Shown piece after piece: positions 1 to 9,550 of a stretch of 11,523 nucleotides of DNA. The position numbers and the translations under genes are program-made. The stretch's first letter is position 1; every line of letters begins with the position of its first letter. The notes under the pieces were generated by a model. That model was not told the origin of the DNA. It saw only the letters and a program-made list of their open reading frames with translations, and did not search any database. This DNA comes from an uncultured archaeon (GTDB lineage: Archaea > Aenigmatarchaeota > Aenigmatarchaeia > GW2011-AR5), in contig CAYJVT010000025.1 of NCBI GenBank assembly GCA_964373695.1, positions 1-11,523 of the forward strand, in the 5' to 3' direction.

Positions 1-36
1 TGGGCCCGACGGGATTCGAACCCGCGACTCCCTGCT

Positions 37-78
37 TTCTCCCCTTTGCTGGCGCAAAGTCGAGGCCATTTTACGGGG
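37..78 (-). other. canonical 37/38 tRNA intron (42 nt) in tRNA-Lys
   Basis: BHB with central helix CTCT/GGAG (one G-U), bulges TA|C and AA|A, outer helices from the anticodon stem and CC/GG. Internal hairpin CTTTGC-GCCA-GCAAAG. Confidence 0.93.
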
Positions 79-95
79 TAAGAGGCAGGTGCTCT

Positions 96-140
96 CTCCT
101 GAGCCTTTCCGCAAGCGCTTTTGTATGAGCAAAAGGGCTT
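96..140 (-). other. non-canonical D-loop (20/21) tRNA intron (45 nt) in tRNA-Lys
   Basis: BHB with central helix CCTG/CAGG, bulges GT|A and AG|A, inner helix AGCC/GGCT, outer helix D-stem GCTC/GAGC. Excision restores the standard D-loop AGCCTGGTA. Confidence 0.92.
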
Positions 141-169
141 ACCAGGCTGAGCTACAGGCCCATGACGAA

Positions 170-190
170 AGGAGAAACTATGTTTCTCCT
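170..190. repeat. perfect 9-bp inverted repeat just upstream of tRNA-Lys
   Basis: AGGAGAAAC (170-178) TAT GTTTCTCCT (182-190). Confidence 0.7.
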
Positions 191-290
191 CTGCGTATAC
201 TCCTCTTCTATCAGCGCGCTAAAGCGCTTTTATTATTTACAAAACTTACACCCTTCAAATAAGCGCCTCGGCCGGGATTCGAACCCGGGT

Positions 291-321
291 TTGCCAATCG
301 CCATCCAACCATATGGCAATT
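291..321 (-). other. non-canonical variable-region (45/46) tRNA intron (31 nt) in tRNA-Asp
   Basis: BHB with central helix GCCA/TGGC, bulges TG|A and AA|A, inner helix ATTGCCA/TGGCGAT. Excision restores the short variable region TGAC. Confidence 0.9.
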
Positions 322-362
322 CATGGCCGTGACAGGGCCATATGCTAGGCCACTACACTACC

Positions 363-381
363 TTTGCCGCCATTTCTGGCT
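363..381 (-). other. acceptor-stem (5/6) tRNA intron (19 nt) in tRNA-Asp
   Basis: AC-TGCC-TC|A-GCCA-GAAA-TGGC-GGCA-AA|G-GT. Central helix TGCC/GGCA, two 3-nt bulges, inner helix GCCA/TGGC capped by a GAAA tetraloop, outer helix AC/GT. Excision joins GCCTC+GG, the exact complement of the 3' strand CCGAGGC. Confidence 0.88.
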
Positions 382-424
382 GAGGCAGTTTCACCACAAG
401 GCAATTGAGTCATTGATTTATTCG

Positions 425-433
425 TATTTAAAA
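425..433 (-). promoter_or_regulatory. probable TATA box for tRNA-Asp (or the Asp-Lys pair)
   Basis: TTTTAAATA on the minus strand about 40 nt upstream of tRNA G1. This predicts a start near 402 and a leader of about 16 nt. Confidence 0.5.
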
Positions 434-749
434 TTTGTTTTCTTTGCGAAATAGTAGTTCTAGGCATGCAATATCCCCATTTTAGCCATACCGCTATTTT
501 TATCAGATGTTTTTCATTTCTGAATCCAATAGAATCCATCCATTTGAATAAATTTTCCTTCCCATATATGTGGATACCGTATTGGACAGTTTTTTTGCCA
601 TATATTAGTCTTTCTCTTGAAAAGACATTGGATTTAATATCAAATTTTATTAACAGTCTTTTTATATCATTTACAAGAAGCCTTTCAGATATCGCTGTGC
701 ATAAAATCAAGTTTTTTGTTTTGTTGTTGCATGTTTGACGCCTCTATTG

Positions 750-1007
750 TTATATTTTAAAAAACTTCTTGTCAAATTGGGGACTAAATTCCGCCTTATC
801 TTTTTTAGCCCAATTTTTGACCATTTCTATTGAAATTTTCAGTATTTCATTTTTGTCATTTGGATGTTTGCTACTTTTTCCCATGCTGTGCATCCGCATA
901 TCGAAATAAACCTGCCTTAACATATTTTGGTATAAATCCCCTTTCTCTATGTGTTCCAATTCTTCTTTTGCCTGCCTTCTCATTTCAATTAACTTTATGC
1001 TTATCAT
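750..1007 (-). CDS. hypothetical protein (85 aa), probably leaderless
   Basis: ATG-initiated, charged, helical-looking ORF (GDLYQNMLRQVY...FSPQFDKKFF). TATA-like TTTAAATA at 1037-1030 is correctly spaced for a leaderless start at 1007. No family recognised. Confidence 0.7.
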   Translation of the reverse strand: MISIKLIEMRRQAKEELEHIEKGDLYQNMLRQVYFDMRMHSMGKSSKHPNDKNEILKISIEMVKNWAKKDKAEFSPQFDKKFFKI

Positions 1008-1029
1008 ACTATCTATGTATCTGTGTATC

Positions 1030-1037
1030 TATTTAAA
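1030..1037 (-). promoter_or_regulatory. TATA box for the 85-aa hypothetical gene
   Basis: TTTAAATA ending 23 nt before the ATG at 1007. Confidence 0.5.
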
Positions 1038-1130
1038 GTTACGTGATTTTCAGACGCCGAACCGCAAGAACCCATGCGTGAACAGCCTCCACAAAGAAAA
1101 TTGTGGGATTTTTTTAGAATGTTTCTTAAA

Positions 1131-1592
1131 TCATATAAATGCGACGATTTTTTCTGCCAGATAAAACACGACCAGCCCCGAAGCAATGCCCGCGACGACA
1201 TCGGACCAGAAATGCTTCTTCAGCCACACGCGCGAAACCATGATGAGCGCGGCGAGCAGGACGACGAACGCCTTCAGCGGGAGCGCTGCAGAAGTCGTCC
1301 AAAAAACCAGAGCAAGGAATACGGCCCTTGCAGAATGGACGCTGGGGAAAGACGACGCCTCGAACTTCTCCCACAAAGCCTTGTATCCCATTTTGTTGGG
1401 CCTGTCCTTGTAGAAAACTAGCTTTAGAGGGACGTTGATGATGTACATCAGGAAGAGACCGGCGGCGAGCATCCAGAAAACCGGCATGCTCATGAACAAG
1501 GAAAACACCAGGAGGACGGCGTAGAACGTCACGCCTCCAAGGGCCGTCACGTCTTTCATGACGGAATTGAGGTAATACGAGAAGGCCTTCAT
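1131..1592 (-). CDS. PAP2-superfamily membrane phosphatase (153 aa)
   Basis: All three PAP2 motifs are present: KxxxxxxRP (KLVFYKDRP), PSxH (FPSVH) and SRxxxxxHxxxD (SRVWLKKHFWSD). Several hydrophobic segments. Confidence 0.92.
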   Translation of the reverse strand: MKAFSYYLNSVMKDVTALGGVTFYAVLLVFSLFMSMPVFWMLAAGLFLMYIINVPLKLVFYKDRPNKMGYKALWEKFEASSFPSVHSARAVFLALVFWTTSAALPLKAFVVLLAALIMVSRVWLKKHFWSDVVAGIASGLVVFYLAEKIVAFI

Positions 1593-1616
1593 AGGATTAT
1601 TAGCGGAAACAAAGGC

Positions 1617-1625
1617 TTTTAAATA
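1617..1625. promoter_or_regulatory. single TATA element plausibly serving the divergent PAP2 and rpoH genes
   Basis: TTTTAAATA is the only TATA-like run in the 60-bp spacer. It lies about 25 nt from the PAP2 ATG (1592) and about 28 nt from the rpoH ATG (1653). Confidence 0.55.
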
Positions 1626-1652
1626 TCAGAATTCCAACATATCTAGGTAATC

Positions 1653-2097: not shown

Positions 2098-5000
2098 ATG
2101 GAGGAGTACAAAACTTTACTAAAGTCTTTCAAGGATTCTGTAGGATTCATAGACCACCAGATAAAGTCGTTCAACGAATTCGTTGATTTCCGCGTCCAGA
2201 AGATAATAAACGAGATAGGCGAGATACAGCTCGAGACGCCTGAGCTTGCCGAGTTCAAGATACAGCTCGGAAAGGTCAGGATACCGCAACCGTGCGTAAA
2301 GGAGGCCGACGGCGCCACGAGGACGATAACACCTTTCGAGGCGAGGATACGCGACCTGACTTATTCTTCCCCCATATATGTCGAGATGATACCCATCATA
2401 AACGGCGTGAAGCAGGAGCCGCAGGAAGTCAAATTAGGGGATTTGCCGATAATGCTAAAGTCGAAGATGTGCACGCTGAACGGGATGAGCGAAGAGGAGC
2501 TTGTGGATAGCGGAGAGGATGCAAGGGACCCGGGAGGCTATTTCATAATCAACGGCACCGAGAGGGTCATAGTCATGGTAGAAGAGGTCCTCTCGAACAG
2601 GCCCATAACAGAGGTGAAGAAGGACGGTGAAAGCGCCAGGATAAACTCCGAGGCGTCCGGCTTCGTGCAGAGACACCTGATAGAGAGGAAGAGCGGCATA
2701 ATAACCATATCGTTCGCCAACGTGAAGAAGCTGCCCGTCATCGTCCTGATGAGGGCGCTCGGGATGGAGACCGACAAGGAGATAATAGAGGCCATAACCA
2801 GCGAAAGGGACGAGATGCAGGAGATATACTTCAACATCTACGAATCCGATGTGAAGACGGTCGACGAGGGCAAGGACTTCATCAGCAAGAAGATGAAGAT
2901 AACCCAGAAGGAATACAGCGACAAGCGTGTCAACGACATACTGGACAAGTACCTGCTGCCGCACCTGGGGCAGGAGAAGAAGGCGAGGATGGACAAGGCC
3001 ATCTACCTGTCGAAGATAGTGAAGAAAATACTGAAGGTTGGCATGAAGAAGGCCGCCGAGCAGGACATAGACCACTACTCCAACAAGAGGCTCAGGATGG
3101 TCGGCGACTTCATGGAAATACTCTTCAGGTCGGTCCTGCTTGGAAAATACGGCCTCGTTTCGAGGATAGTATACTCATACCAGAAGCTCGTCAAGAGGGG
3201 CAAGATGCCATCGATAAAGTCCATAGTGGAGAGCGACTACCTGACGAAGAGGATAGTCTCGCACATGGCGACAGGGCAGTGGATAGGCGGCAGGACAGGC
3301 GTCTGCCAGCGCCTCGAAAGGACCAACTTCATAAGGACGGTGGCTCACCTCAGGAACGTCATCTCGCCCCTTTCGTCTTCGCAGGAGCATTTCGAGGCCA
3401 GGGCCCTGCACGGGACACACTGGGGAAGGCTGTGCGCGGAGGAGACACCCGAAGGGGTGAACATAGGGCTGAGGAAATACCTCGCGATAATGGCCATGAT
3501 TTCTGACACCTCGACAGAGAAGGAAAAAGAGCCGATACTGGACATGGCAAAGAAGGAGATGCCAATAGACACCAAGGGCATCACCGAAGGCAGGCATGTG
3601 GTGCTTCTCGATGGAAAGATACTGTGCACGACGGACCAGCCGGAAAAATTCGTGCAGAAGCTCCGCGACAAGAGAAGGTCCGGCGCCCTGGATTCGGGAA
3701 TAAACGTTTCGTTCGTGCCCGAGTTCGAGGAAGTCCACATAAACACGGACTCCGGAAGGCTGCAGAGGCCTCTTATAATAGTGGAGAACGGGAAGCCCAG
3801 GCTCACCGAAGAGCATGTGGAGAAGCTGAAGAAAGGTGAAATATCATGGAATGAGCTGATAAAGAACGGCGTTATCGAATACCTCGACGCGGAGGAGGAG
3901 AACAACGCCTACGTGGCCCTGAACAGGAACTACATAAACAATGACAGGAGCCATATGGAAATAAATGACGGGATATTACTGGGGCTCTCGGCGTCCTTGG
4001 TGCCGTTCCCGACGCACGACAGGGGGGACAGGGTGAATTTCGGCGCCAAGATGTTCGGCCAGGCCCTCGGCATATTTGCCACGAACTACCTCATGAGGAC
4101 CGACACGAAATCCGACATACTCGCGTATTCGCAGATACCGCTGGTCACGACGGCGGTGACGGACCAGGTCAACCTCGACGAGCATCCGCAGGGGCAGAAC
4201 ATAATCATAGCGATGATGAGCTACAAGGGCTACAACATGGAGGACGGCATAGTCTTCAACAAGGCCTCCATAGAGAGGGGATTCGGAAGGTCTTATTTCT
4301 TCAGGAGCTACGTCACCGAAGAGAAAAAATACTGGGGAATAGAGAAGGACGAGATAAAGATACCCGACAAGAGCGTCAACGGATACAAGACCGAGGAATC
4401 ATACGCCAACCTGGACCAGGACGGCGTGATAAACAGGGAGATAGAGGTCGCGGCGGGCGACGTCATAGTGGGCAAGGTCTCGCCGCTCCGCTTTTTTGGC
4501 CCGGTCGAAAGCTTCATGTCGGAGACCGAGAACAGGAGGGAGACCTCGGAAATCATAAGGTACGGCGAGGAAGGGATAGTGGACAACGTCATCGTTAGCG
4601 AGACTATAAACGGCAACAAGCTCGTCAAGATAAATGTCAGGACCGAGAGGATACCGGAGCTCGGGGACAAGTTCACCAGCAGGCACGGCCAGAAGGGCGT
4701 CATATCGCTTATAGTCCCGGAGGAGGACATGCCTTTCACCGAGAACGGCGTGATACCGGACATCATAGTAAATCCGCACGCAATACCGTCCAGGATGACC
4801 ATAGGGCAGCTCCTGGAGATCGTAGCCGCCAAGGTGTCGGCGTTAACAGGAACGAGGGTGGACGCGTCCGCGTTCAACAACGACGAGGCCGTGAGCGAGG
4901 AGTCGCTCAGGAAGGCGCTCACCCACATGGGATTCAGGGACGACGCCAAGGAGCCTATGTACCACGGCGTGAGCGGAAAGAAGCTCGAGGGGCGCATACT

Positions 5001-5394
5001 CGTCGGGCCGTGCTACTACCAGAAGCTGCACCACATGGTCGCGAACAAGCTCCAGGCAAGGGCCAGGGGTCCTGTAACCCTGCTGACGAAGCAACCCACG
5101 GCCGGAAGGGCAAAGCAGGGCGGGCTGAGGCTGGGAGAAATGGAAAAGGACTGCTTAATAGCGCACGGAGCGGCGCTCCTCCTGAAGGAGAGGTTCAGTT
5201 CCGACAGGTACACGATACCGATATGCAAGCAGTGCGGGCTTGTGGCGGTGGAAGACCACATCAAGGGAAAGAAATACTGCGCAGTATGCAAGAAGAGCAA
5301 GATAACCGACGTCGAGATGTCTTACGCATTCAAGCTCATGCTCGACGAGCTCAAGTGCCTGGGCATATATCCCAGGGTCATTGCAGACGAGTGA
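2098..5394 (+). CDS. rpoB: DNA-directed RNA polymerase subunit B (Rpo2), unsplit, 1098 aa
   Basis: GGYFIINGTERV, ETPEG, YNMED, GDKFTSRHGQKG, PSRMT, YYQKLHHMV, GGLRLGEME and a C-terminal CxxC...CxxC zinc site. No B'/B'' split and no intein. Confidence 0.98.
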   Translation: MEEYKTLLKSFKDSVGFIDHQIKSFNEFVDFRVQKIINEIGEIQLETPELAEFKIQLGKVRIPQPCVKEADGATRTITPFEARIRDLTYSSPIYVEMIPIINGVKQEPQEVKLGDLPIMLKSKMCTLNGMSEEELVDSGEDARDPGGYFIINGTERVIVMVEEVLSNRPITEVKKDGESARINSEASGFVQRHLIERKSGIITISFANVKKLPVIVLMRALGMETDKEIIEAITSERDEMQEIYFNIYESDVKTVDEGKDFISKKMKITQKEYSDKRVNDILDKYLLPHLGQEKKARMDKAIYLSKIVKKILKVGMKKAAEQDIDHYSNKRLRMVGDFMEILFRSVLLGKYGLVSRIVYSYQKLVKRGKMPSIKSIVESDYLTKRIVSHMATGQWIGGRTGVCQRLERTNFIRTVAHLRNVISPLSSSQEHFEARALHGTHWGRLCAEETPEGVNIGLRKYLAIMAMISDTSTEKEKEPILDMAKKEMPIDTKGITEGRHVVLLDGKILCTTDQPEKFVQKLRDKRRSGALDSGINVSFVPEFEEVHINTDSGRLQRPLIIVENGKPRLTEEHVEKLKKGEISWNELIKNGVIEYLDAEEENNAYVALNRNYINNDRSHMEINDGILLGLSASLVPFPTHDRGDRVNFGAKMFGQALGIFATNYLMRTDTKSDILAYSQIPLVTTAVTDQVNLDEHPQGQNIIIAMMSYKGYNMEDGIVFNKASIERGFGRSYFFRSYVTEEKKYWGIEKDEIKIPDKSVNGYKTEESYANLDQDGVINREIEVAAGDVIVGKVSPLRFFGPVESFMSETENRRETSEIIRYGEEGIVDNVIVSETINGNKLVKINVRTERIPELGDKFTSRHGQKGVISLIVPEEDMPFTENGVIPDIIVNPHAIPSRMTIGQLLEIVAAKVSALTGTRVDASAFNNDEAVSEESLRKALTHMGFRDDAKEPMYHGVSGKKLEGRILVGPCYYQKLHHMVANKLQARARGPVTLLTKQPTAGRAKQGGLRLGEMEKDCLIAHGAALLLKERFSSDRYTIPICKQCGLVAVEDHIKGKKYCAVCKKSKITDVEMSYAFKLMLDELKCLGIYPRVIADE

Positions 5395-5399
5395 TAATC

Positions 5400-7871
5400 A
5401 TGACAAACATAAAATCGATAGGCTTCGGGTTCCTGTCGCCCAAGGTAATAAAGGAGATGTCCATGGTGAAGATAGAGCACGCGGAGCTCTACGACCCCGA
5501 CGGCTATCCGATAGACAACGGGCTGGCGGACCTCCACCTGGGCGTGGTGGACCCGGGGCTGAGATGCAGGACATGCGGCGGCACCATCGGCCAGTGCCTT
5601 GGCCATTTCGGGTACCTGGAGCTCGTGAAGCCGGTCGCCCACCCGCTGTACGGGAAGAAAATCTATCTTATACTCATGTCGACATGCAGGGAGTGCTCGA
5701 GACCCCTCGTGAACGAGGAAGAGCTGAAGAAGATGAGCAACCCACTGGCCATGATATACAAGAAAAGGAAGATGACATGCCCCCACTGCAAGGCCAAGCA
5801 GAAGGAGATGGAGTACCAGAAGCCCACGTCCTTCAGGGAGGGCAAGAACGAGCTTACGAGCGAGGAAGTCAGGCAGCGCCTAGAGAAGATAAGCGACGAT
5901 GACGTGAAGCTCATGAAGATAAAGGGCGGCAGGCCGGAATGGTTCGTGCTGACAATACTCCCGATACCGCCGGTGACAGTAAGGCCGTCAATAACGCTTG
6001 AGACCGGGGAGCGCAGCGAGGACGACCTCACGCACAAGCTCGTGGACATAGTCAGGATAAACGAGAGGCTGAGGAAGAACCTTGAGATAGGGGCTCCTGA
6101 TTTCATAATAGCGGACATATGGGAACTCCTCCAGTACCACGTGTCAACGCTCATGAGCAACGAGATATCGACTTTGCCGCCGGCAAGGCACAGGTCCGGC
6201 CGCGCACTAAAGACGCTCATGCAGAGGCTGAGCAAGAAGGAAGGCAGGTTCCGGGGCAACCTCTCGGGCAAGAGGGTGAACTTCGCGGCGCGTACCGTCA
6301 TAACGCCGGACTCTCAGATATCAATCAACGAGATAGGGGTTCCGCTCGAAATCGCGAAGGAGCTCACCATACTCGAAAAGGTGAACAAGAGCAACATTGA
6401 GCTCATGAAAACGCTCATACTGAACGGAAGCGCCGCATATCCCGGCGCGAACTACATCGTCAGGATGGACAATGTCAGGAAGAAGATAACCGACGAGAAC
6501 AAGAAGGAAGTATCCAACGAGATAGACGTCGGGTACATGGTCGAGAGGCATCTCAAGGACGGCGACATAGTCGTGATGAACAGGCAGCCTTCCCTGCACA
6601 GGATGAGCATGATGGCCCACCGCGTCAGGGTCATGCCGTTCAGGACGCTCCGCCTCAACCTGACGGTGACGATACCATACAATGCCGACTTCGACGGGGA
6701 CGAGATGAACATACACGTCCCGCAGACAGTGGAAGCCCAGACCGAGGCGAGGATGCTCATGAGCGTCGAGAAGCATATAAGGTCGCCGAGATACGGCCTC
6801 CCTGTCATAGCCGGAAAGCACGACCACATAACCGGCGCCTACCTCCTCACGAAGGACGACGCCAAGTTCACGAAGCAGGAAGCCGCGGACCTCCTGTTCT
6901 CGATAGGCATGGAGGACTTCGAGGCGAAGGAGGAGTACACAGGCAAGGAGATATTTAGCATGATACTCCCGAAGGAGCTCAGCGTGGAATACAAGTCGGC
7001 GTCAGGCGAGGAAGTCATAATAAAGAACGGCGTCCTGAAGAAGGGCGTCATAGACGACAGGTCTCTAGGCGAGAAGAAAGGGAAGCTCATAGACGTCATA
7101 GAGAGGAAATACGATCACGAGACCACGAGGAAGTTCATCGACAACGTATCGAGGCTGGCGCTGGAAGTGATAACGCGCAAGGGATTCAGCATATCCATCA
7201 GCGACGTGGACATAAGCCATAAGGCGTCCAAGAGGATAGAGAAGATACTCGAGGAATATGAGGAGACGGTGAACAAGCTCATAAAGGACTACAACGCGGG
7301 GCGAACGGAGAAGGTGCCGGGCATGACGCCCGAGATGGTCCTTGAGAACAGGATACTCCAGATGGGCGGAGGAGCCTCCAACCAAGCGAACGAGATAATA
7401 AAAGGCGACCTGCCGTGGAACTCTGCCGTCATCATGGCCAGGACGGGAGCGAGAGGAAGCTTCGTCAACCTGACGCAGATGTGCGGATTCGTCGGCCAGG
7501 AAACGCTGGGTGGAGAGAGGATAAACAGGGGATACGTGAACAGGACTCTTTCGTCGTTCAGGCCCGGGGAGATGAGCCTCAAGGCGAAGGGCTTCGTCGG
7601 CCGCGGATACAAAGTCGGCCTCGACCCTTTCGAGTTCTTCTTTGACGCCATGAACTCCAGGGAGAACCTCATGGACAAGTCGCTGCACACGAGGCACTCC
7701 GGATACATGGAGAGGCGCCTCGTCTCCGCACTGCAGGACCTCAGGGTGGAATACGACGGCACGGTGCGCGACAGCAAGAACCACATAATCCAGTTCGTTG
7801 CAGGGGAAGACGGTGTGGACCCGGCCAAGAGCGACGGCGGAAAGATCAACATGGAGAGGGTTCTGGGATGA
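5400..7871 (+). CDS. rpoA1: DNA-directed RNA polymerase subunit A' (Rpo1N), 823 aa; start moved from the ORF-track 5010 to ATG 5400
   Basis: CRTC...CLGHFG zinc site, GNLSGKRVNF, NRQPSLH and catalytic YNADFDGDEMN. MTNIKSIGFGFLSP follows the rpoB stop, with GAGTGA as SD. Confidence 0.97.
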   Translation: MTNIKSIGFGFLSPKVIKEMSMVKIEHAELYDPDGYPIDNGLADLHLGVVDPGLRCRTCGGTIGQCLGHFGYLELVKPVAHPLYGKKIYLILMSTCRECSRPLVNEEELKKMSNPLAMIYKKRKMTCPHCKAKQKEMEYQKPTSFREGKNELTSEEVRQRLEKISDDDVKLMKIKGGRPEWFVLTILPIPPVTVRPSITLETGERSEDDLTHKLVDIVRINERLRKNLEIGAPDFIIADIWELLQYHVSTLMSNEISTLPPARHRSGRALKTLMQRLSKKEGRFRGNLSGKRVNFAARTVITPDSQISINEIGVPLEIAKELTILEKVNKSNIELMKTLILNGSAAYPGANYIVRMDNVRKKITDENKKEVSNEIDVGYMVERHLKDGDIVVMNRQPSLHRMSMMAHRVRVMPFRTLRLNLTVTIPYNADFDGDEMNIHVPQTVEAQTEARMLMSVEKHIRSPRYGLPVIAGKHDHITGAYLLTKDDAKFTKQEAADLLFSIGMEDFEAKEEYTGKEIFSMILPKELSVEYKSASGEEVIIKNGVLKKGVIDDRSLGEKKGKLIDVIERKYDHETTRKFIDNVSRLALEVITRKGFSISISDVDISHKASKRIEKILEEYEETVNKLIKDYNAGRTEKVPGMTPEMVLENRILQMGGGASNQANEIIKGDLPWNSAVIMARTGARGSFVNLTQMCGFVGQETLGGERINRGYVNRTLSSFRPGEMSLKAKGFVGRGYKVGLDPFEFFFDAMNSRENLMDKSLHTRHSGYMERRLVSALQDLRVEYDGTVRDSKNHIIQFVAGEDGVDPAKSDGGKINMERVLG

Positions 7872-9550
7872 TGCTTTCAAAGAAAACCATGGACGATTTC
7901 GAGAAATACTGCAAGGAGAACAAGCTCAGCGACAAGCAGAAGGAGGAGAAACTGGCGCTCCTGCAGAAGCTCGTGATAAAATACATGTACGAGCCCGGCG
8001 AGGCCATCGGCATAATAGCCGCGCAGAGCATCTCAGAACCAGCGACCCAGATGTGCGCCGACTATAATGAAAAAATAATTGTAAAATTCAAAGAAAAAGT
8101 TTATAGTATAACAATAGGAGAGCTTGTAGACAGCGCTATGGATAAAAGTTGCGAAAAATTTAACGGCTATGAAATAAGAAATCTGCCGGGAGGAATTGAG
8201 ATTTTGGTTCCGAGTCTTGATGCTAATGAAAAAATAAGATGGAAAAAAATCACAGCCCTCTGCAGGCATGAAAGCCCCGAATTCCTGCTGGAAGTAAAAA
8301 CAAAATCGGGACGCTGCGTAAGAGCAACAGAATATCATTCATTTGTGACCAAAGTAAACGGTAAAATAATCCCTATTGCAGGCAAAGACCTGAAAATAGG
8401 CGACATGATACCGGCAATAAAAAATATTTCCAAATTATTCATAACAAATACCTTTGCAACCCAAAGTGGTATGCTCTTGTCAAGAAATACATCCGGTTCT
8501 GTTATTATGTGGGATGAAATAACAGAAATAAGGAAAATAAAACCCTCAGCGCCTTATGTTTACGACGTCACAGTGGATGAGAATCATACCTTTACAACTT
8601 CAGAAGGCCTGATTATTCACAACACCATGCGTTCGTACACGATGGCGTCGCAGAGCGACAGGCTGAGCAAGGTCACCCACGGGCTGCCACGGCTGATAGA
8701 GATATTCGACACCAGGAAGAGCTTCGAGAAGAACATGATGATATACCTGAAGCCCGAATGCAACACGAAGGAGAAGGCGAGGGACATAGCGAACATGATA
8801 AAGGAAAGCAGGATTGCCGACATAATAATTTCCGATTCCATAGACCTGGCGGAGAACTCGATAGAGATAGAGCTCGACAACGAGTCCGACAGGGACATCA
8901 CCAAGTCGGTCATAGAAAAGTACATCAAGGAAGCAGAAATAAGCTCCAGAGGCAGGAAGATAATAATAAAGCCCAAGAAGGAGAACATAAAGAACCTCAG
9001 GAAACTCAAGACGAAGGCGATGAGGCTCCACATAAGGGGCATCCAGAGCATAGACAACGTCGTCGTCATAAAGGACAATGAGGACTGGATAATACAGACC
9101 ACCGGGAGCAACCTCAAGAAAGTGTTCCAGATAGACGGGGTCGACATACACAGAACCACGACAAACGACATCTACCAGGTGCTCGAGGTGCTAGGCATAG
9201 AGGCCGCGAGGAACATGATACTCCGCGAGACGCTGAACACGCTGAGCGAGCAGGGGCTGGACGTGGACATCAGGCACATCCTGCTGCTTGCCGACATGAT
9301 GAGCTTCGACGGCACCGTGAAGGACATAGGACGCTACGGCGTTTCCGGCAAGAAGTCGTCAGTCCTGGCGAGGGCCAACTTCGAGGAGACGAAGAAGCAC
9401 CTGATAAACGCTTCGTTCTCCGGCGAGACGGACAAGCTCGACGGCATAATAGAGAACATAATAGTGGGCCAGATAGCACCTGTCGGCACCGGGATGGTCA
9501 AGCTCGGCATAGACATGGAAAAGATGAGGCAGATGGCCAGGAAAAAATAA
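7868..9550 (+). CDS. rpoA2: DNA-directed RNA polymerase subunit A'' (Rpo1C) precursor with intein; about 370 aa after splicing
   Basis: EPGEAIGIIAAQSISEPATQM, GLPRLIEIFD, LGIEAARN, DIRHILLLADMM, SVLARANFE, ENIIVGQIAPVGTG. ATGA overlap with the rpoA1 stop. Confidence 0.97.
   Translation: MMLSKKTMDDFEKYCKENKLSDKQKEEKLALLQKLVIKYMYEPGEAIGIIAAQSISEPATQMCADYNEKIIVKFKEKVYSITIGELVDSAMDKSCEKFNGYEIRNLPGGIEILVPSLDANEKIRWKKITALCRHESPEFLLEVKTKSGRCVRATEYHSFVTKVNGKIIPIAGKDLKIGDMIPAIKNISKLFITNTFATQSGMLLSRNTSGSVIMWDEITEIRKIKPSAPYVYDVTVDENHTFTTSEGLIIHNTMRSYTMASQSDRLSKVTHGLPRLIEIFDTRKSFEKNMMIYLKPECNTKEKARDIANMIKESRIADIIISDSIDLAENSIEIELDNESDRDITKSVIEKYIKEAEISSRGRKIIIKPKKENIKNLRKLKTKAMRLHIRGIQSIDNVVVIKDNEDWIIQTTGSNLKKVFQIDGVDIHRTTTNDIYQVLEVLGIEAARNMILRETLNTLSEQGLDVDIRHILLLADMMSFDGTVKDIGRYGVSGKKSSVLARANFEETKKHLINASFSGETDKLDGIIENIIVGQIAPVGTGMVKLGIDMEKMRQMARKK
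8054..8623 (+). mobile_element. mini-intein (190 aa, no endonuclease domain) in RpoA''
   Basis: Starts with Cys after TQM and ends with IIHN followed by Thr(+1). Block B TKSGRCVRATEYHSF and block F YVYDVTVDENHTF are present. Removal restores TQM-TMR. Hand-counted 60-nt samples: about 33% GC inside versus about 53% in the flanking extein. Confidence 0.96.

What the first reader, a model, noticed from the sequence alone, without database searches (positions are those of the whole stretch)
7494..7740. Bridge helix and F-loop of RpoA' are heavily diverged despite intact NADFDGD
The sequence reads EFFFDAMNSRENLMDKSLHTRHSGYMERRL versus the conserved EFFFHAMGGREGL(I/V)DTAV(K/R)T..(S/T)GY.QRRL. By yeast Rpb1 numbering: H816D, G819N, G820S, G823N, T827K, A828S, K830H and Q838E, so the N-terminal hinge glycines are lost. 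The F-loop has GQE for GQQ and RTLSSF for RTLPHF. These elements contact the folded trigger loop, which suggests co-evolution with its changes. Speculatively, the new bridge-helix His or Lys could supply the positive group lost from the trigger loop.
Basis: partly seen in the sequence, partly recalled or inferred. Interest (0 to 1): 0.75.

Follow-up and report, generated by a model that had tools for sequence, protein, structure and literature searches.

The report
Remodelled bridge helix in archaeal RNA polymerase
The only RNA polymerase of this tiny Aenigmatarchaeota archaeon has an unusual but strictly conserved "bridge helix" lacking glycines thought near-invariant; it was built up in steps over the phylum's history, next to a trigger loop that has lost its "universal" histidine.

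Summary
Window 7632-7721 encodes the bridge helix exactly as quoted, and all eight listed substitutions stand.

It is not decay. rpoA' is single-copy and sits in a normal rpoH-B-A'-A'' operon. The 28-residue core is almost invariant across the order, while its synonymous sites are scrambled.

The changes arose in layers:
- **Phylum-wide:** H816D, G819N, T827K, A828S and Q838E occur across Aenigmatarchaeota, mostly beside a normal trigger-loop His.
- **Before the His loss:** K830 had already become Gln in the sister lineage, which keeps the His. It became His only later, inside the order.
- **Same branch as the trigger-loop change:** only G820S and G823N arose on the same stem as H1085T, G1088S and a 2-residue tip insert.

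Published structures place G819 beside G1088 and K830 beside V1094 in the closed trigger loop, so structural co-adaptation is plausible. It rests on one evolutionary event. Bacterial lineages that lost the His keep the bridge-helix Lys/Arg.

The idea that bridge-helix Lys or His replaces the lost positive group is not supported.

G820 and a basic residue at 830 are otherwise almost universal, so this is a rare natural variant. I found no description of it. The scan had already noted trigger-loop His losses on other DNA.

The parts
5400..7871 (+). rpoA' (Rpo1N), 823 aa, the only copy in the genome
   Evidence: Pfam Rpb1 domains 1-5; single match in G000; start and motifs verified
6681..6701 (+). 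NADFDGD metal-A motif, intact
7494..7559 (+). F-loop segment (GQE ... RTLSSF)
   Evidence: column profiles; GQE is phylum-wide; the His-to-Ser change in RTLSSF is private to this genome and its genus
7632..7721 (+). bridge helix, 30 residues (A' 745-774 = yeast Rpb1 812-841)
7650..7670 (+). N-terminal hinge heptad MNSRENL (canonical MGGREGL): G819N, G820S, G823N
   Evidence: hinge definition from PMC2988716
7686..7688 (+). His codon at the yeast K830 position (A' residue 763)
   Evidence: order H16/Q7 versus rest of phylum R18/K9/Q1; history on the tree
7868..9550 (+). rpoA'' (Rpo1C), 560 aa including an intein
   Evidence: Pfam Rpb1 domain 5 plus Intein_splicing
8033..8053 (+). trigger loop, N-extein part (SEPATQM)
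8054..8623 (+). 190-aa mini-intein (Cys1 ... His-Asn, Thr+1) inserted inside the trigger loop
8624..8695 (+). trigger loop, C-extein part: H1085T, G1088S, 2-residue longer tip; the Arg at the yeast N1082 position is kept
2098..5394 (+). rpoB; has order-specific fixed changes, including residue 436 (acidic to Ala) next to fork loop 2 and S403C

Best explanation
This is the working bridge helix of the cell's only RNA polymerase. It is a lineage-fixed alternative sequence held by strong purifying selection, and it was assembled in layers. (1) Before the phylum diversified: H816D/N, loss of G819, T827K, A828S, V829L and Q838E. (2) On the stem shared with the sister lineage f12: K/R830 to Gln. (3) On the stem of this order: G820S and G823N, together with trigger-loop H1085T, G1088S and a 2-residue tip insert. 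(4) Inside the order: Q830 to His. Inferred mechanism: the helix still spans the cleft and contacts template and RNA (T831, G835, Y836 and R839/R840 are unchanged). Its N-terminal hinge now relies on Asn/Ser rather than Gly. Its two packing sites for the closed trigger loop (819/820 against 1087/1088, and 826/830 against 1094) have been re-fitted to the altered loop. The bridge helix does not chemically replace the lost His. Phosphate contact is most likely left to the retained trigger-loop Arg and the unchanged RpoB/RpoA' basic residues, with residue 1085 acting only by position. The older T827K change matches a superactivating mutation in M. jannaschii and may have been permissive for the later loss-of-function-type changes.
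For: Shown: the gene is single-copy in a standard operon. The 28-residue core is identical in 99 of 120 closest homologues. In 23 order genomes, pairwise codon differences in the core are 3750 synonymous versus 317 nonsynonymous, and Ser820 is encoded by both TCN and AGY codons. Column profiles compare 23 order genomes with 28 genomes from the rest of the phylum. Across 122 distinct genomes, G819 is absent in all 122, and K827 is present in 104, of which 72 keep the trigger-loop His. On the tree of concatenated RpoB+A'+A'', order plus f12 has support 1.0. f12 has Q830 with a His trigger loop. Basal families f2, f7 and f8 have Q830, and the crown clade has H830 (support 0.94). Among 132 bridge helices from the 150 nearest 50%-identity clusters of all RNAPs, 820 is Gly in 128. 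Residue 830 is Lys/Arg except in this order and one other cluster. From the literature: G809/G810 of M. jannaschii (yeast 819/820) are called essentially invariant, any substitution severely lowers activity, G813 is less sensitive, and Q817K (yeast 827) is superactive (PMC2988716). Side chains at 816, 817 and 819 point away from the catalytic centre (PMC2776397). [quoted passage not shown] The G819-G1088 distance was tracked as a bridge helix-trigger loop pair (PMC10069792). Gain-of-function bridge-helix alleles suppress strong trigger-loop loss-of-function alleles, including H1085Y (PMC5127505). H1085L is tolerated, which supports a positional role (PMC12391331).
Against: The co-adaptation claim rests on one stem branch, so it cannot be tested statistically. 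The node separating the order from f12 has low local support (0.47), and f12 is a single MAG with no close relatives in 5.8 billion proteins. [quoted passage not shown] Gly-to-Ser/Asn on both sides of a pocket described as tight is not simple size compensation. No structure, model coordinates or enzyme data were available. The permissive role of K827 is inference from another species' enzyme.
Confidence: 0.7

Rival explanations
1. Chemical compensation: the new bridge-helix Lys (827) or His (830) reaches the NTP triphosphate and supplies the positive group lost with the trigger-loop His.
For: Both residues can carry positive charge and lie on the central bridge helix. H830 is fixed in the crown clade of the order after the His loss.
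Against: K827 is present in 72 genomes that keep the trigger-loop His. Its M. jannaschii equivalent points away from the catalytic centre (PMC2776397). Position 830 was Lys/Arg before, so the change removes charge. It is Gln in families f2, f7 and f8, which also lack the His, and in f12, which keeps it. In Pol II, K830 is neutralised by D826 and packs on V1094 (PMC5127505). Bacterial lineages with trigger-loop His replaced by N/K/S/R/Y/W keep the bridge-helix Lys/Arg unchanged.
Confidence: 0.04
2. [quoted passage not shown] They were fixed by drift in small DPANN populations and then frozen, and they merely share a branch.
For: G820S and G823N/S occur without trigger-loop His loss in 21 and 24 genomes. 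K830Q occurs with a His trigger loop in f12. A His-to-Gln loss in family f11 has no matching 820/830 change. There is no clear enrichment of order-specific changes in these elements. Other, probably DPANN, lineages also have odd bridge helices.
Against: The changed residues are reported as direct contact partners in the closed trigger loop (PMC10069792, PMC5127505). In M. jannaschii and yeast each change alone is strongly deleterious or lethal: G809/G810 substitutions (PMC2988716), all G1088 substitutions, and H1085 to A/N/D/F (PMC5127505). Fixation without compensation is therefore hard to picture. After fixation the residues are under very strong constraint.
Confidence: 0.2
3. Degenerating gene, extra paralogue or assembly artefact.
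For: The genome is small, reduced and fragmented (60 contigs, 91% complete).
Against: There is a single match in the genome and the frame is open with all Pfam domains. The same sequence occurs in over 100 independent assemblies, with saturated synonymous change.
Confidence: 0.01

Closest known systems
Canonical archaeal Rpo1N/RpoA' bridge helix (Thermococcus 4QIW/6KF3, Sulfolobus 2WAQ/2PMZ, Methanocaldococcus)
   Same: Same gene, domain order and operon. The NADFDGD motif is the same, as are the template- and RNA-contacting residues T831, G835, Y836 and R839/R840, and the length.
   Different: 13 of 30 residues differ from Thermococcus. There is no Gly at 819, 820 or 823, no basic residue at 830, Asp for His at 816, Lys for Thr/Gln at 827, and Glu for Gln at 838.
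Engineered M. jannaschii bridge-helix mutants (Tan 2008, PMC2776397; Weinzierl 2010, PMC2988716)
   Same: The same positions were mutated there: G809, G810, G813, Q817, R820 and Q828. Q817K is the residue seen here at position 827.
   Different: Those were single substitutions in a canonical background. G809 and G810 changes crippled the enzyme, whereas here the combination is the wild type of a whole order.
Yeast Pol II bridge helix-trigger loop epistasis (Qiu 2016, PMC5127505; Duan 2025, PMC12391331)
   Same: The same interface is involved (K830-V1094, and the A1087/G1088 pocket). There is precedent for bridge-helix alleles suppressing trigger-loop His mutants, and for trigger loops being incompatible outside their own enzyme.
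   Different: Those are laboratory alleles. H1085T plus G1088S plus a 2-residue insert, with a Gly-less hinge, is a natural fixed haplotype that those papers do not mention as far as I read them.
Natural RNAPs lacking the trigger-loop His in bacteria (gut Bacilli MAGs with Asn; some Mycolicibacterium/Actinomycetospora with Lys; Clostridia with Ser; Patescibacteria with Tyr/Trp/Asn)
   Same: A histidine described as universal has been lost in a conserved, evidently functional polymerase (earlier scan note e1-5222394).
   Different: Their bridge helices keep Gly at the 819 and 823 positions and Lys/Arg at 830. The archaeal order changes all of these.

Membership tests
Archaeal RNA polymerase subunit A' (Rpo1N) | Rpb1 domains 1-5 in order, ending shortly after the bridge helix | tested here: met
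   Pfam PF04997, PF00623, PF04983, PF05000 and PF04998, all far above cut-off
Archaeal RNA polymerase subunit A' (Rpo1N) | Catalytic NADFDGD motif | tested here: met
   window 6681-6701
Archaeal RNA polymerase subunit A' (Rpo1N) | rpoH-rpoB-rpoA'-rpoA''-L30e-nusA-S12-S7 gene order, and a single copy | tested here: met
Archaeal RNA polymerase subunit A' (Rpo1N) | Catalytic activity of the assembled enzyme | not testable with these tools
   Inferred from its being the only copy and from purifying selection
Glycine-based N-terminal bridge-helix hinge (BH-HN, Weinzierl 2010) | Gly-Gly directly after the conserved Met (M. jannaschii G809/G810 = yeast G819/G820) | tested here: not met
   Asn-Ser here. 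Residue 819 is non-Gly in 122/122 genomes of the phylum, and 820 is Ser in all of the order
Glycine-based N-terminal bridge-helix hinge (BH-HN, Weinzierl 2010) | Flanking Met, Arg and Glu that stabilise the kink (M808, R811, E812) | tested here: met
   M751, R754 and E755 are conserved in the order and the phylum
Glycine-based C-terminal hinge (BH-HC) | Ser/Thr-Gly-Tyr (M. jannaschii S824-G825-Y826) | tested here: met
   S767-G768-Y769 are invariant in all 51 aligned genomes
Canonical bridge helix-trigger loop packing (Pol II closed state) | Basic residue at 830 salt-bridged to D826 and packing on V1094 | tested here: not met
   His here and Gln in the basal families; D826 and the Val at 1094 are retained
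Canonical trigger loop | His at 1085 and Ala-Gly at 1087-1088 | tested here: not met
   Thr (Ile in two genera) and Ala-Ser, plus a 2-residue longer tip

The most novel reading that the evidence does not exclude
A whole order of archaea runs its nucleotide-addition cycle with none of the three N-terminal bridge-helix glycines, no basic residue at 830 and no trigger-loop His. That would mean the glycine hinge and the His are dispensable in a suitably pre-adapted background (for example the superactivating Lys at 827). The path is still readable in living lineages, from the phylum-wide state through f12 and the Q830 families to the H830 crown, so the epistatic route could be rebuilt at the bench.
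Probability: 0.45. Interest if true: 0.7.

Novelty: new variant of a known kind. Interest (0 to 1): 0.55.

Why it matters
[quoted passage not shown] Models of translocation and catalysis lean on the hinge glycines and the trigger-loop His, which are treated as invariant. This is a natural, strongly conserved enzyme that lacks them, and its relatives preserve intermediate states. It offers a ready-made set of haplotypes for three tests: the hinge model, the positional-catalyst model, and how epistasis lets ultra-conserved active-site residues change. It also warns that "class-wide" signatures must be separated from changes that truly share a branch before co-evolution is inferred.

Tried and rejected
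- **Search for independent archaeal His losses:** It cannot see Gln, Leu, Pro or Arg codons, so it is not exhaustive. All its archaeal hits were from this order.
- **F-loop covariation:** the F-loop Leu-to-Glu change (A' 704) was checked against the new Arg in the trigger-loop tip. The pattern is inconsistent across families, so I dropped it.
- **Mutant activities:** the supplement of PMC2776397 holds only figure legends, so no quantitative activities were available.
- **More members of sister lineage f12:** none were found in the genome set or in 5.8 billion proteins.
- **Loss of the cleavage factor TFS as a correlate:** TFS-type zinc ribbons are present across the phylum.
- **Structure prediction:** not run, because the tool returns no coordinates, so the distances that matter could not be measured.

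Full report
**What is there.** The window is a whole 11.5-kb contig of a 1.02-Mb genome that is 91% complete. It carries the standard archaeal operon rpoH, rpoB (2098-5394), rpoA' (5400-7871), rpoA'' (7868-9550), L30e, nusA, S12 and S7. Close homologues are named Candidatus Aenigmarchaeota/Aenigmatarchaeota by their depositors. The bridge helix is at 7632-7721, the F-loop segment at 7494-7559, and NADFDGD at 6681-6701. Against solved archaeal polymerases, the 30-residue helix differs from Thermococcus at 13 positions, whereas Thermococcus and Sulfolobus differ at 3. It agrees with the Rpb1 match range and with residue numbers in PMC5127505 and PMC2988716. M. jannaschii numbers are yeast numbers minus 10.

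**It is a working gene under constraint.**
- rpoA' is the only copy in the genome, and each relative also has one.
- In 30 relatives of the same family and order the helix is nearly invariant.
- 99 of the 120 closest database proteins share the identical 28-residue core, although they are only 67-95% identical over the surrounding 164 residues.
- At the DNA level, 23 order genomes show 3750 synonymous against 317 nonsynonymous pairwise codon differences in the core. The nonsynonymous differences fall at only five of the 28 codons, mainly residues 818 and 830. Ser820 is written with both TCN and AGY codons.
- This is purifying selection on the variant sequence, not decay.

**The partner element.** RpoA'' carries a 190-residue mini-intein (8054-8623) inside the trigger loop. 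The spliced trigger loop has Thr for the His at yeast 1085, Ser for G1088, Ser-Tyr for Thr-Phe at 1083-1084, and a tip that is two residues longer. The Arg at the yeast N1082 position is retained. These features are shared by every family of the order. Two genera have Ile instead of Thr at 1085.

**Layering of the bridge-helix changes.** I aligned RpoB, RpoA' and RpoA'' from 23 genomes of the order and 28 genomes from 22 other families. [quoted passage not shown] The phylum has a single class.
- **Phylum-wide changes.** Residue 816 is Asp/Asn. Residue 819 is non-Gly in 122/122 genomes. K827 is present in 104/122, of which 72 keep the trigger-loop His. S828, L829 and E838 are also phylum-wide. 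The F-loop GQE is common across the phylum too.
- **Order-linked changes.** Residue 820 is Ser in all of the order, and G22/S5/Q1 outside it. Residue 823 is Asn in all of the order, and G18/S7/N2/A1 outside it. Residue 830 is H16/Q7 in the order, and R18/K9/Q1 outside it.
- **RTLSSF.** This form is private to this genome; the usual form is RTLSHF.

**Order of events.** A maximum-likelihood tree of the three subunits groups the order with family f12 (support 1.0). f12 has Gln at 830 but a canonical His/Ala-Gly trigger loop and Gly at 820 and 823. Within the order, the basal families f2, f7 and f8 have Gln at 830, and the crown (f1, f3-f6; support 0.94) has His. So K/R830 became Gln before the His was lost, and Gln became His afterwards. 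Only G820S and G823N share the stem branch with the trigger-loop change.

Two caveats apply. The node separating the order from f12 has support of only 0.47. And f12 is a single MAG with no close relatives in the protein database.

**Test of co-occurrence.** Raw counts look strong: 29 of 30 genomes without a basic 830 lack the trigger-loop His. But they reflect essentially one event. There are several exceptions.
- G820S and G823N/S occur in 21 and 24 genomes that keep the His.
- A genus of family f11 has His-to-Gln with unchanged 820 and 830.
- A scan of 185,579 species genomes found many bacterial lineages with the His replaced by Asn, Lys, Ser, Arg, Tyr or Trp. All of them keep the bridge-helix Lys/Arg, Gly at the 819 position and Gly at the 823 position.
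- Across the three subunits, order-specific fixed columns are not clearly concentrated in these two elements. They do include the two most conserved trigger-loop residues, and a residue next to RpoB fork loop 2.

**How rare the state is.** I examined 132 bridge helices from the 150 nearest 50%-identity clusters of a 1.8-billion-protein library, which span archaeal and eukaryotic polymerases.
- Residue 820 is Gly in 128 of them; three of the four exceptions belong to this phylum.
- Residue 830 is Lys/Arg everywhere except in this order and one other cluster.
- Residues 816 and 819 vary more widely.

**What the literature says about these positions.**
- Weinzierl (PMC2988716) calls M. jannaschii G809/G810 (yeast 819/820) essentially invariant and the basis of the N-terminal hinge.
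- In that study any substitution severely lowers activity. G813 (yeast 823) is less sensitive, and Q817K (yeast 827) is superactive.
- Tan et al. (PMC2776397) place the side chains of 816, 817 and 819 facing away from the catalytic centre.
- Qiu et al. (PMC5127505) describe K830, neutralised by D826, packing on trigger-loop V1094 in the closed state.
- They report H1085 A/N/D/F as lethal, Q as mild and L as healthy, and they find that gain-of-function bridge-helix alleles suppress H1085Y.
- PMC10069792 tracks the G819-G1088 distance as a bridge helix-trigger loop pair.
- Duan et al. (PMC12391331) show that trigger loops from other lineages are mostly incompatible with yeast Pol II.
- I found no paper describing the Aenigmatarchaeota state.

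**Interpretation.**
- *Shown:* a conserved, stepwise-assembled variant bridge helix in a functional single-copy polymerase.
- *Inferred:* the last layer (G820S, G823N, and later Q830H) re-fits the two surfaces that hold the closed trigger loop, which itself changed at the matching residues.
- *Inferred:* the older Lys at 827 may have been permissive.
- *Inferred:* the hinge now depends on Asn and Ser, which have low helix propensity (my own knowledge of helix-propensity scales, not tested).
- *Not supported:* the suggestion that bridge-helix Lys or His takes over the chemistry of the lost His. The timing, the direction of the charge change, the Gln-bearing families and the published geometry all argue against it.
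- The retained trigger-loop Arg is the obvious remaining phosphate contact. This rests on established knowledge of bacterial and archaeal RNAP structures and was not tested here.

**Limits.** There are no coordinates and no enzyme data. The co-adaptation reading rests on one evolutionary event. The genome scan was truncated and blind to some codons.

Noticed in passing
window 8054-8623 (+): A 190-aa mini-intein (Cys1, His-Asn end, Thr+1) splits the trigger loop between the Met and Thr of TQM|TMR. About a third of relatives carry an intein at the same site, most starting with Ser, and the others have none.
   Followed up: partly
G000 contig C20:425-544 and 7425-7544 (outside the window): There are two TFS-type zinc-ribbon genes in this genome and in most genomes of its family, against one in most other families of the phylum. 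This may be a cleavage-factor paralogue in the lineage that lacks the trigger-loop His.
   Followed up: no
P0127 and the approx. 1427-1443-aa frames in families f16, f17, f23, f26 and f28: rpoB appears split, and its C-terminal half (Rpb2 domains 4-7) is fused in frame to RpoA' as one protein of about 1430 aa.
   Followed up: partly
P0126 (1178 aa): A natural single-chain RpoA'+RpoA'' fusion from an f7-like member of this order. It carries both the variant bridge helix (Gln at 830) and the His-less trigger loop, so it is handy for modelling or expression.
   Followed up: partly
L072-L191: Many bacterial lineages have the trigger-loop His replaced: gut Bacilli/Tenericutes MAGs (Asn), several Mycolicibacterium/Mycobacterium and Actinomycetospora genomes (Lys), Clostridia (Ser), Oscillospiraceae (Arg) and Patescibacteria (Tyr, Trp, Asn). 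The gut Bacilli also have Ala-Val for Leu-Ala at bridge-helix 824-825. I did not check whether the actinobacterial copies are second rpoC genes.
   Followed up: partly
L215/L037 (G064, family f11): An independent trigger-loop His-to-Gln change within the same phylum. Its sister genus keeps the His, and both have G823N.
   Followed up: partly
L022 and L028 (G018, G020; family f1): Ile instead of Thr at trigger-loop position 1085 in two genera of the order, which fits a steric rather than chemical role for this residue.
   Followed up: no
window 3403-3405 and 3304-3306 (rpoB residues 436 and 403): Order-specific fixed changes in RpoB: the acidic residue after the conserved Arg next to fork loop 2 is Ala, and the Ser of the GVSQ motif is Cys. 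Others lie at residues 322, 338, 351, 385 and 748-749.
   Followed up: partly
window 1-1650: A low-GC (0.40) left end with a PAP2 phosphatase gene (1131-1592, minus strand) and a weak LAGLIDADG-like match (345-710, minus strand, E = 0.004, below cut-off).
   Followed up: no
P0129-P0171 set: Another, unnamed group of archaeal RpoA' has its own variant bridge helix: Thr at 819, Ser/Ala at 823, Pro-Lys at 832-833, Tyr at 838, and residue 816 variable.
   Followed up: no
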